From: a virus
Taxonomy: Duplodnaviria; Heunggongvirae; Uroviricota; Caudoviricetes
Strand: one strand, 5' to 3'
IMG/VR virus record: IMGVR_UViG_2648501669_000004
Location: 1 to 4,791 of that record
DNA length: 4,791 bases
Shown: in pieces, positions 1,098 to 1,269 of the stretch
Numbering within the stretch: position 1 is the stretch's first letter
Layout of the letters: each line of letters begins with the position of its first letter
Made by a program: the position numbers and the translations under genes
Notes under the pieces: model-generated
Database searches by the model: none
The model's input: the letters and a program-made list of their open reading frames with translations, nothing else
Told to the model about the DNA's origin: nothing

Positions 1098-1111
1098 GCG
1101 GGTGCTTGAGG
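1098..1111 (+). promoter_or_regulatory. 5' leader element complementary to the 3' end of the hok transcript (tac/fbi-like fold-back partner)
   Basis: GCGGGTGCTTGAGG (1098-1111) can pair with CCTCAACGCACCCGC (1476-1490) as 8 + 6 bp with a single bulged C. This resembles the 5'-3' fold-back pairing described for hok mRNAs. Confidence 0.4.
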
Positions 1112-1269
1112 CTATCTGCCTCAGGCATGAACACCAAAAGGCAGATAGAGAAAAGCCCCAGTTAACATTACGCGTCCTGCAAGACGCTTAACATTAATCT
1201 GAGGCCCAATCTATGTCTCACAAATGTAGGTTAGCCTCTTACGTGCCGAAAGGCAAGGAGAAGCAGGCT

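What the first reader, a model, noticed from the sequence alone, without database searches (positions are those of the whole stretch)
1107..1196. Dense repeat and hairpin architecture in the hok leader
Within 90 bp the leader contains: a perfect 9-bp inverted repeat CTATCTGCC / GGCAGATAG (1112-1120 and 1140-1148) around a 19-nt spacer; an alternative nested hairpin TGAGGC-TATCT-GCCTCA (1107-1123); and two direct copies of TTAACATTA (1162-1170 and 1188-1196) flanking a GCGTC-CTGCAA-GACGC hairpin (1172-1187), just upstream of a GAGG Shine-Dalgarno and the in-frame ATG at 1213. This is more structure than an ordinary intergenic spacer. It could be RNA elements controlling toxin translation, an antisense-RNA target, or protein operator sites.
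Basis: seen in the sequence. Interest (0 to 1): 0.45.

Follow-up and report, generated by a model that had tools for sequence, protein, structure and literature searches.

The report
Known hok/sok toxin-antitoxin RNA leader
The repeats and hairpins are the well-known RNA switches at the start of a prophage hok toxin mRNA, plus the gene for its antisense antidote RNA (Sok) on the other strand, so the finding is real but already explained.

Summary
Together they are the 5' leader of a hokW/hokD-type hok mRNA (about 1100-1518, + strand) and the overlapping sok antisense gene (about 1221-1151, - strand) of a lambdoid prophage. Rfam RF01794 matches 1100-1275 at 121.7 bits (threshold 59). The locus is 95.5% identical to the annotated, experimentally tested hokW-sokW of phage 933W/Sp5.

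- **Nested hairpin (1102-1128):** the family's 5' metastable hairpin, with the consensus CUNUNUG loop.
- **9-bp inverted repeat:** the core of the long tac stem (1100-1159).
- **The two TTAACATTA copies:** the two arms of one imperfect hairpin, capped by GCGTC/GACGC. It is strong on the Sok strand (U·G wobbles) and weaker on the hok strand (C·A mismatches).

Folding reproduces the published switch. In the full-length mRNA, tac pairs with fbi (1476-1488) and ucb sequesters the mok Shine-Dalgarno. In the 3'-trimmed mRNA, tac pairs with ucb and the Shine-Dalgarno pairs with dcb. Eighty-one distinct homologous leaders show compensatory changes that support both states.

The only mild twist is a clade-specific extension of the Sok hairpin. 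Verdict: already known, low interest. No evidence was found for, and none directly against, protein operator sites.

The parts
1066..1093 (+). Putative hok mRNA promoter: -35 TTGCGG 1066-1071 (tentative), 16-nt spacer, -10 TAGAAT 1088-1093.
   Evidence: Read from the sequence. The -10 keeps the form TAnnAT in all eight divergent loci of alignment A1 (TAGAAT, TATAAT, TACAAT, TAGGAT, TAGTAT). The consensus scanner did not call it. Inferred, not shown.
1100..1518 (+). Full-length hok mRNA. The 5' end is inferred from the -10 and the start of the Rfam model. The 3' end is at the intrinsic terminator.
   Evidence: Rfam RF01794 match starts at 1100. Terminator 1495-1512 plus T run. Whole-transcript fold -167.9 kcal/mol, z = -6.9.
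1100..1112 (+). tac (translational activator element), GGGUGCUUGAGGC. It has three alternative partners: 1118-1128, fbi, or ucb.
   Evidence: Folds. Conserved in eight divergent loci retrieved by similarity (A1). Its invariance in the 81-leader set A2 is largely forced by the search pattern. Element names from PMC9841398.
1102..1128 (+). The loop CUAUCUG (1112-1118) fits the family consensus CUNUNUG.
   Evidence: Fold of 1100-1130: -19.6 kcal/mol, 90% of the ensemble, z = -5.0. 99.2% of cells paired in 81 leaders against 32-43% for slid controls. Loop consensus from PMC1524914.
1112..1148 (+). The apical part, 1122-1138, is variable.
   Evidence: Compensatory changes at three pairs: A-U 59, G-C 10, G-U 6, U-A 1; C-G 75 and U-A 3; C-G 50, U-G 29, G-C 1, G-U 1.
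1153..1161 (+). ucb (upstream complementary box, the anti-Shine-Dalgarno). It pairs with tac 1100-1107 in the trimmed mRNA, or with the mok SD region 1199-1205 in the full-length mRNA.
   Evidence: The closing helix shows compensatory changes (A-U to G-C in 3 leaders; G-C to A-U or C-G in 7).
1161..1198 (+). Hairpin made by the two TTAACATTA copies (1162-1170, 1188-1196), capped by GCGTC/GACGC (1172-1176/1183-1187). On the hok strand it has a 2x2 C·A/A·C internal loop.
   Evidence: Fold -9.4 kcal/mol. Relative to the Rfam consensus, the apical part (roughly 16-26 nt, depending on the alignment) is an insertion in this hairpin's loop. Present in 69 of 81 distinct leaders and very conserved.
1151..1221 (-). 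Sok antisense RNA gene: a 14-nt single-stranded 5' tail (1221-1208), a hairpin of about 24 pairs (1207-1153), then a U-rich 3' end.
   Evidence: Coordinates transferred from the sokW misc_RNA of NC_000924. Fold -29.2 kcal/mol, z = -5.1. sokW antitoxin activity was shown for the 95.5% identical Sp5 locus (PMC8621323).
1228..1256 (-). Putative sok promoter: -35 TTGCCT (1256-1251), 17-nt spacer, -10 TAACCT (1233-1228), start at G1221.
   Evidence: Read from the sequence and identical to 933W across both hexamers. Promoter-down mutations in the Sp5 sokW -10 unleash HokW toxicity (PMC8621323). Not called by the consensus scanner.
1201..1205 (+). mok Shine-Dalgarno, GAGGC.
   Evidence: Paired with ucb in the full-length fold and with dcb in the trimmed fold. 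Nearly invariant.
1213..1425 (+). mok reading frame (70 codons), in frame with and containing hok (1270-1425, 51 codons).
   Evidence: Pfam PF01848 Hok/Gef 79.8 bits, cutoff 22. Hok is identical to HokW of 933W; Mok differs only at residues 2-4.
1234..1238 (+). dcb (downstream complementary box), GCCUC. It pairs with the mok SD in the trimmed mRNA and closes the hairpin 1201-1238 that presents the Sok target loop.
   Evidence: This helix has four pairs with compensatory changes.
1476..1488 (+). fbi (fold-back inhibitory element), CCUCAACGCACCC. It pairs with tac 1100-1111, with C1482 bulged.
   Evidence: (I6). The same 5'/3' pairing is found in 84 of 103 distinct full-length homologs (seven near-identical fbi variants). 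R1-like loci use a different but still complementary partner.
1495..1518 (+). Intrinsic terminator of hok mRNA.
   Evidence: 7-pair stem, then TTTTTGTTTTA.

Best explanation
The segment is the 5' regulatory leader of a hokW/hokD-type hok toxin mRNA. It overlaps the gene for its cis-antisense antitoxin RNA, Sok, in a lambdoid prophage. It works as the classical hok/sok folding switch.

1. While the mRNA is being made, the 5' end (tac, 1100-1112) folds at once with 1118-1128 into a metastable hairpin. This keeps the nascent RNA inert.
2. In the finished mRNA, tac pairs with fbi (1476-1488) near the 3' end. The ucb box (1153-1161) pairs with the mok Shine-Dalgarno region (1199-1205). The mRNA is then stable, untranslatable and not bound by Sok.
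3. Slow 3' trimming removes fbi. Tac pairs with ucb instead, forming the long tac stem 1100-1159, whose core is the 9-10 bp inverted repeat. The Shine-Dalgarno now pairs with dcb (1234-1238), giving the hairpin that allows mok/hok translation and presents the Sok target.
4. Sok (1221-1151, - strand) binds through its single-stranded 5' tail across the mok start, and the duplex is cut by RNase III. If Sok disappears, Hok is made and damages the inner membrane.

The two TTAACATTA copies and the GCGTC/GACGC hairpin are one stem-loop. On the - strand it is the body and terminator hairpin of Sok. On the + strand it is the scaffold that brings ucb and the Shine-Dalgarno together.

What is shown here: the sequence features, the family match, the predicted alternative folds, and the conservation and covariation. 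What is inferred from the literature on R1 and Sp5: transcript ends, 3' trimming, RNase III cleavage and toxicity.
For: - **Family match:** Rfam RF01794 at 121.7 bits against a gathering score of 59, E = 2e-28, over 1100-1275. Pfam Hok/Gef at 79.8 bits.
- **Known relatives:** 95.5% DNA identity to phage 933W, where mokW, hokW and sokW are annotated at the matching positions. The identical leader occurs in other E. coli genomes, and every one of 5426 E. coli genomes holds a relative.
- **Folding:** the full-length fold pairs 1100-1111 with 1476-1488 and 1155-1161 with 1199-1205. The 3'-trimmed fold pairs 1100-1107 with 1153-1159 and 1201-1205 with 1234-1238. The nascent 31 nt fold into the 11-pair hairpin.
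- **Hairpin loop:** CUAUCUG matches the published CUNUNUG consensus of hok-family metastable hairpins (PMC1524914).
- **Covariation in 81 distinct leaders:** compensatory changes in the tac-stem core, the ucb/SD closing helix and the SD/dcb hairpin. Overall 90.9-99.2% of cells are paired, against 24-47% for slid controls.
- **5'/3' pairing:** tac-fbi complementarity is kept in 84 of 103 distinct full-length homologs and is replaced by a different complementary partner in R1-like loci.
- **Sok strand:** the fold gives a single-stranded tail, a long hairpin and a U tail.
- **Published mechanism and function:** PMC9841398 for the switch; PMC8621323 for hokW-sokW as a working type I toxin-antitoxin pair that depends on RNase III and Hfq.
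Against: - No RNA data exist for this exact copy. Transcript ends, 3' trimming and Sok expression are inferred.
- The simple consensus scan called neither promoter.
- The 5' arm of the metastable hairpin could not vary in my homolog set, because the search pattern fixed it. That hairpin therefore has only one-sided, pair-preserving changes, not double changes.
- The GCGTC/GACGC extension is too conserved to show covariation.
- In the minimum-energy fold the Shine-Dalgarno is paired in the 'active' form too. Translatability of that form rests on the R1 literature.
- Chromosomal hok loci have been reported as inactive in some strains (cited in bioRxiv 10.1101/2025.08.07.668861).
Confidence: 0.93

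Rival explanations
1. The TTAACATTA direct repeats and the inverted repeats are DNA operator sites for a phage or host DNA-binding protein that controls hok or sok transcription.
For: Two exact 9-bp copies 26 bp apart look like repeated half-sites. They lie inside the transcribed sok gene and near both promoters. This stretch is extremely conserved (entropy 0.00-0.21 bits over 1160-1199).
Against: RNA pairing accounts for every repeat. The two copies pair with each other, with wobble pairs on the Sok strand, in 67 of 67 homologs. The inverted repeats show compensatory, pair-preserving substitutions, which are expected for RNA helices rather than protein sites. Other hok loci regulated in the same way lack the repeats altogether (hokC, gef, R1-like). 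The published hok/sok mechanism as read here involves no repressor.
Confidence: 0.03
2. The 9-bp direct repeats flanking a 17-bp palindrome are only an evolutionary scar. They could be a target-site-like duplication left by an insertion and excision event, or a slipped duplication in the loop of the ancestral Sok hairpin, with no function of their own.
For: Relative to the Rfam consensus and to hokC, gef and R1-type leaders, the apical part of this hairpin is an insertion of roughly 16-26 nt, depending on the alignment. Nine-bp direct repeats flanking an insert are typical of some transposable elements (my own knowledge). IS186/IS421-like elements repeatedly sit next to hok loci.
Against: The insert is nearly invariant across 69 distinct leaders, while the neighbouring mok start region varies freely. 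That argues for selection. It extends the Sok stem in register, and all 67 tested copies keep the stronger - strand fold. The 16-mer occurs nowhere else in 2.1 Mb of held sequence, so it is not a dispersed element. An origin as a scar would not exclude a present function.
Confidence: 0.1
3. The structures are those of a hok/sok locus, but this chromosomal prophage copy is a decayed, non-functional relic.
For: Several chromosomal hok loci are reported to be inactive (cited). Many homologous loci fetched here have an IS421/IS186-like element just downstream that removes fbi. The K-12 hokD copy lacks the whole leader (H22).
Against: This copy keeps every element: promoter -10, tac, ucb, SD, intact mok and hok frames, dcb, sok promoter hexamers identical to 933W, fbi and terminator, with no IS nearby. 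Its Hok protein is identical to the toxic HokW.
Confidence: 0.07

Closest known systems
hokW-sokW of Stx2 phages 933W / Sakai prophage 5 (NC_000924; Takada et al. 2021, PMC8621323)
   Same: Same locus type and layout. 95.5% DNA identity over 93% of 1060-1530. Identical 51-aa Hok, identical sok promoter hexamers, and the same extended Sok hairpin with both TTAACATTA copies.
   Different: Five of 14 bases in the Sok 5' tail differ, and so do Mok residues 2-4 (SHK against LNT). One loop base in the GCGTC hairpin also differs. The position in the phage differs too. Here the locus lies upstream of DUF968-RusA-Q in the nin-like region. In 933W it is near the right end, next to a YgiW/YdeI-family gene.
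hok/sok of plasmid R1 (the paradigm; Gerdes and co-workers; Le Rhun et al. 2022, PMC9841398)
   Same: Same set of elements and same predicted switch: tac, metastable 5' hairpin with CUNUNUG loop, ucb, mok SD, dcb, fbi, and a cis-antisense Sok with a 5' tail and hairpin.
   Different: HokW is only 44% identical to R1 Hok (PMC8621323). From my recollection of the R1 sequence, not checked here, mok is out of frame with hok in R1, whereas here it is in frame. The Sok hairpin here is about twice as long because of the clade-specific insert. R1-like leaders lack the TTAACATTA repeats. The setting is a prophage, not a plasmid.
E. coli K-12 hokC (gef)/mokC/sokC and the prophage gef of PPompW
   Same: The 5' 60 nt (tac, metastable hairpin, tac stem, ucb) are nearly identical. 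mok is in frame with hok, and the SD/dcb hairpin is the same.
   Different: About 69% (hokC) or 85% (PPompW) identity. Both have the short version of hairpin 2, without the GCGTC cap or the direct repeats. K-12 hokC has an IS element downstream in place of fbi.
E. coli K-12 hokD (relF) in the Qin prophage
   Same: PGAP labels most close homologs of this locus 'hokD', and the coding region and 3' part are about 93% identical.
   Different: The K-12 copy matches only from window position 1256 onward. It therefore lacks the whole leader and sok described here (H22-H23).

Membership tests
[quoted passage not shown] | Small Hok/Gef-family membrane toxin reading frame | tested here: met
   PF01848 at 79.8 bits, cutoff 22, on 1213-1422. 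The 51-aa Hok is identical to HokW of 933W.
[quoted passage not shown] | Leader matches the curated covariance model above its gathering score | tested here: met
   RF01794 at 121.7 bits against 59, E = 2.3e-28, full model 1-157, window 1100-1275 + strand. One insertion of about 16 nt falls in the loop of hairpin 2.
[quoted passage not shown] | Overlapping mok frame with its own Shine-Dalgarno upstream of hok | tested here: met
   ATG 1213, GAGGC 1201-1205, a 70-codon frame ending at the hok stop. Annotated as mokW in 933W.
[quoted passage not shown] | Long-range pairing of the mRNA 5' end (tac) with a 3' element (fbi) just before the terminator | tested here: met
   1100-1111 pairs with 1476-1488 in the minimum-energy fold. 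An exact 8-bp core was found independently (I6). Conserved in 84 of 103 distinct homologs, and an alternative complementary partner is used in R1-like loci.
[quoted passage not shown] | 5' metastable hairpin with CUNUNUG loop | tested here: met
   1102-1128, loop CUAUCUG, -19.6 kcal/mol. 99.2% paired in homologs. Consensus taken from PMC1524914. Kinetic metastability itself was not tested.
[quoted passage not shown] | Mutually exclusive partners for the mok SD (ucb in full-length mRNA, dcb in trimmed mRNA), and for ucb (SD or tac) | tested here: met
   Predicted folds of 1100-1518 against 1100-1479. Both helices carry compensatory changes. This is prediction only, with no probing.
[quoted passage not shown] | Cis-encoded antisense Sok RNA with its own promoter, a single-stranded 5' tail complementary to the mok start region, a hairpin and a U tail | tested here: met
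   Met at sequence level. Promoter hexamers are identical to the sokW promoter of 933W, the start is at G1221, and the fold has a 14-nt tail, a 24-pair hairpin and a U tail. Expression cannot be tested here.
[quoted passage not shown] | 3' exonucleolytic activation, RNase III cleavage of the duplex, killing when Sok decays | not testable with these tools
   Partly shown for the Sp5 hokW-sokW homolog: toxicity, Sok antitoxin activity, and RNase III and Hfq dependence (PMC8621323). Shown for R1 (PMC9841398).

The most novel reading that the evidence does not exclude
The hokW/hokD/P1-like clade carries a structurally distinct Sok. An insertion of roughly 16-26 nt (the GCGTC-loop-GACGC cap plus a second TTAACATTA) lengthens the Sok stem-loop from about 8 to about 24 pairs. 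It does so asymmetrically: U·G wobbles on Sok, C·A mismatches on hok mRNA. This long, nearly perfect helix could itself set Sok's turnover, or create the partial Hfq and RNase III dependence reported for sokW. That would make it a functional sub-class of the family rather than a neutral length variant.
Probability: 0.2. Interest if true: 0.3.

Novelty: already known. Interest (0 to 1): 0.1.

Why it matters
It matters little for discovery, because hok/sok is the textbook type I toxin-antitoxin system. Its leader switch was worked out in the 1990s, and this prophage version (hokW-sokW) is annotated and has been tested experimentally.

The value here is in correct annotation:

- The window holds an apparently intact hok/mok/sok module.
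- Automated annotation of the 99.8% identical chromosomal copy lists only a 'Hok/Gef family protein' and omits mok and sok.
- The leader is a clean worked example of one sequence encoding three mutually exclusive RNA folds plus an antisense gene.

The clade-specific long Sok hairpin, and the hypervariable Sok 5' tail among otherwise near-identical copies, are small leads on how many co-resident hok/sok copies might avoid cross-talk.

Tried and rejected
- **Wasted genome scan.** I scanned genome contigs with the 14-base pattern GCTTGAGGCTNTCTG. The pattern was too short for a 596-Gb collection. Only about seven loci proved to be real hok leaders (Citrobacter, E. albertii, Shigella, Raoultella and Klebsiella, plus two unexpected MAG contigs, L026 and L186). 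A longer pattern on viral contigs gave the usable set.
- **Promoter scan.** The consensus scan found neither the hok nor the sok promoter. Both were placed by hand and by transfer from 933W.
- **Sub-threshold Rfam hits set aside.** These were rsmX-like 1430-1516, ceN48, sR55, CsrC and Trp_leader-like 4143-4231. All are far below their gathering scores and are explained by ordinary hairpins and terminators.
- **tRNA scan.** It found nothing.
- **Dispersed-repeat idea.** I asked whether the 16-mer GCGTCCTGCAAGACGC is a dispersed repeat or a mobile-element end. It occurs only inside hok leaders in 2.1 Mb of held sequence, so the idea was not pursued.
- **Covariation in the GCGTC/GACGC cap.** It could not be assessed, because the cap barely varies.
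- **Bias in the homolog set.** It was ascertained with a pattern that fixes the tac sequence, so the set cannot test variation of the 5' arm.

Full report
**Observation**

- CTATCTGCC 1112-1120 and GGCAGATAG 1140-1148 form a perfect inverted repeat. It is embedded in a longer imperfect one, 1101-1121/1139-1159.
- TGAGGC-TATCT-GCCTCA (1107-1123) extends to 1103-1112/1118-1127.
- TTAACATTA occurs exactly twice in the window, at 1162-1170 and 1188-1196. Chance expectation is 0.03, and 0 of 200 shuffles gave two.
- GCGTC/GACGC (1172-1176/1183-1187) lies between the two copies.

RNA folding energies for 1100-1130, 1100-1160, 1100-1200 and the whole transcript lie 4.5 to 6.9 standard deviations below shuffled controls. 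The structure is therefore real and not a chance effect.

**What the locus is**

- The reading frame 1270-1425 is a Hok/Gef toxin (Pfam PF01848, 79.8 bits). An in-frame upstream start at 1213 gives a 70-codon mok frame.
- Rfam's hok/sok leader model RF01794 matches 1100-1275 on the + strand at 121.7 bits, against a gathering score of 59.
- The 471-bp region is 95.5% identical to phage 933W and VT2-Sakai. Those records annotate mokW, hokW and the antisense sokW RNA.
- Transferring the 933W annotation puts Sok at about 1221-1151 on the - strand.
- The flanking genes are typical of a lambdoid prophage early-right region: DUF551, DUF968/HNH, RusA and antiterminator Q.
- Relatives of the leader occur in all 5426 complete E. 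coli genomes, with a median of three places per genome. The identical leader occurs in other strains.
- The hokW-sokW pair of Sakai prophage 5 has been shown to be a working type I toxin-antitoxin system. Its sok promoter mutations release toxicity (PMC8621323).

**How each repeat maps onto the known mechanism**

The published model for R1 hok mRNA (summarised in PMC9841398; element map in PMC3851714) has four parts:

- a 5' element, tac;
- a 3' element, fbi;
- an anti-Shine-Dalgarno box, ucb;
- a downstream box, dcb.

A transient 5' hairpin acts during transcription. Folding this window reproduces each state.

1. *Nascent RNA.* The first 31 nt form an 11-pair hairpin, 1102-1112/1118-1128 (-19.6 kcal/mol, 90% of the ensemble). 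Its loop, CUAUCUG, fits the CUNUNUG consensus reported for the metastable 5' hairpins of the hok family (PMC1524914).
2. *Full-length mRNA (1100-1518).* Bases 1100-1111 pair with 1476-1488, just upstream of the terminator. Bases 1155-1161 pair with 1199-1205, which buries the mok Shine-Dalgarno GAGGC.
3. *3'-trimmed mRNA (1100-1479).* Bases 1100-1107 now pair with 1153-1159, giving a long stem 1100-1159. The Shine-Dalgarno pairs with GCCUC 1234-1238.

It is mutually exclusive with the metastable hairpin, because 1118-1121 take part in both.

**The direct repeats**

TTAACATTA is almost its own reverse complement, so the two copies pair with each other.

- On the hok strand the helix is interrupted by a 2x2 C·A/A·C internal loop and is modest (-9.4 kcal/mol for 1160-1200).
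- On the Sok strand the same positions are U·G/G·U wobbles, so the helix is continuous.

Sok therefore folds as a 14-nt single-stranded 5' tail (1221-1208, complementary to the mok start), a hairpin of about 24 pairs (1207-1153) and a U-rich tail (-29.2 kcal/mol, z = -5.1). In 67 of 67 homologs carrying this hairpin, the - strand version is the more stable one (mean -13.4 against -8.6 kcal/mol).

The stretch 1161-1198 thus has two roles. It is the body and terminator hairpin of the antitoxin RNA. On the mRNA it is the scaffold whose base is closed by ucb and the Shine-Dalgarno in the inactive state.

**Comparative test**

A pattern scan of IMG/VR, plus annotated E. coli, phage and plasmid loci, gave 81 distinct leaders.

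| Structure | Result |
|---|---|
| Active fold, overall | 90.9% of cells paired; 32-47% when partners are slid |
| tac-stem core | Compensatory changes at three pairs (for example A-U 59, G-C 10, G-U 6, U-A 1) |
| SD/dcb hairpin | Compensatory changes at four pairs |
| ucb/SD closing helix (inactive state) | 93.4% paired; A-U to G-C and G-C to A-U or C-G exchanges |
| Metastable hairpin | 99.2% paired; seven pairs vary on the 3' side only, always keeping the pair |

The 5' arm of the metastable hairpin was fixed by my search pattern, so double changes could not appear there.

The tac-fbi pairing recurs in 84 of 103 distinct full-length homologs. R1-like loci use a different partner that is still complementary. 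Loci with an IS421/IS186-like insertion downstream have lost it.

**What is specific to this clade**

Relative to the Rfam consensus and to hokC, the PPompW gef, R1-like, Citrobacter and Klebsiella leaders, the apical part of hairpin 2 is an insertion of roughly 16-26 nt, depending on the alignment. It comprises the GCGTC-loop-GACGC cap and the sequence that creates the second TTAACATTA.

- It is present in 69 of 81 distinct leaders (hokW, hokD-labelled and P1-like copies).
- It is almost invariant there (column entropy 0.00-0.21 bits).
- By contrast, the adjacent 1206-1226 region (Sok 5' tail, mok codons 2-4, target loop) is the most variable part of the leader (0.85 bits).
- The cap shows no compensatory changes, so only conservation supports it.
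- The 16-mer is found nowhere else in the 2.1 Mb of sequence held.

I found no description of this extension in the papers I could read. However, the sequences have been public and annotated since the 933W genome, so this is a detail of a known system and not a new one.

**Rivals**

- *Protein operator sites.* Nothing supports them. RNA pairing explains all the repeats, substitutions preserve pairing rather than sequence, and other hok loci lack the repeats.
- *Insertion scar.* This could describe the origin of the extension, but it does not explain its strict conservation.
- *Decay of this copy.* This is unlikely, because every element is intact and Hok is identical to the toxic HokW. Activity has not been shown for this copy.

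**Verdict**

The system is the already known hok/sok switch, in its hokW/hokD prophage form. Interest is low.

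Noticed in passing
window 1206-1226 (both strands): The Sok 5' tail, mok codons 2-4 and the target-loop region form the most variable part of the leader among otherwise near-identical copies (entropy 0.85 bits against 0.0-0.2 nearby). This copy differs from 933W at 5 of the 14 tail bases. E. coli genomes carry up to 10-12 such copies, so this may reflect diversification of antisense specificity to avoid cross-talk.
   Followed up: partly
window 1100-1275: The Rfam family called 'sok' (RF01794, 157 positions, ending at the hok AUG) matches the + strand. 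That strand is the hok mRNA leader, not the strand that encodes the roughly 70-nt Sok RNA. The family name can therefore mislead strand assignment.
   Followed up: no
L003, L004, L005, L008 (about 190-350 nt downstream of hok): Several homologous loci, including K-12 hokC and a P1-like plasmid, have an IS4-like IS421 transposase element inserted just after hok. It replaces the fbi element and the terminator. The window's copy has no such insertion.
   Followed up: partly
hit H22/H23 (E. coli K-12 derivatives): The K-12 hokD copy matches only from window position 1256 onward, so it lacks the whole leader and sok. Even so, annotation pipelines label most full-length homologs 'hokD'.
   Followed up: no
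L002 4001-4471 (NZ_CP122823, 99.8% identical to the window): RefSeq annotation of the near-identical chromosomal copy lists only a 'Hok/Gef family protein'. Neither mok nor the sok RNA is annotated.
   Followed up: no
hit H26 (PP818812.1): A record named Actinobacillus phage vB_Apl-pPE4 carries a hok locus 96.5% identical to this E. coli prophage locus. That is an unexpected host for so close a match, and could reflect transfer or a host mislabel.
   Followed up: no
L026 (43-227) and L186 (7375-7559): Two real hok leaders sit on unexpected contigs. L026 is a 3.3-kb contig of a MAG labelled Bacillota, with the leader starting 43 nt from its end. L186 is an IMG/VR contig of unstated host. Both pass the leader filter and align across tac, ucb and the Shine-Dalgarno. 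L026 may be a binning artefact or contamination.
   Followed up: no
window 1435-1456: A perfect 9-pair hairpin, GGCGGGAGA-GUAA-UCUCCCGCC, lies just after the hok stop codon. E. coli B hokD has GGCGAGGGA...UCCCUCGCC at the same place, so pairing is kept through changes on both arms. It is probably the conserved 3' stem-loop of hok mRNAs.
   Followed up: partly
window 4125-4235: Downstream of the Q antiterminator gene there is a short stretch ending in a strong terminator-like hairpin, AACCCGCCGCCGAGCGGGTT plus a T run (about 4205-4231). It was picked up as a sub-threshold 'Trp_leader' match (24.3 bits against 41). It resembles the late promoter and short terminated leader transcript on which Q acts in lambdoid phages.
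   Followed up: no
window 975-1058: A 27-codon hydrophobic reading frame (MTWPEAFTTVGIAMAVALVVYSICRWG) overlaps the stop of the preceding gene and ends about 40 nt before the hok promoter. It has no Pfam match.
   Followed up: no
window 3303-4124: The antiterminator Q homolog (PF03589, 172 bits) also carries a DnaJ-type CXXCXGXG zinc-finger signal just below threshold (30.4 bits against 32.7).
   Followed up: no
L171, L200, L238 (hok leader): Three viral contigs carry the cap as GCGTCTTGCAGGACGC, the exact reverse complement of the window's GCGTCCTGCAAGACGC. In those copies the wobble pair therefore sits on the hok strand and the mismatch on the Sok strand. This could come from two point changes or from an inversion of the palindrome.
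   Followed up: partly
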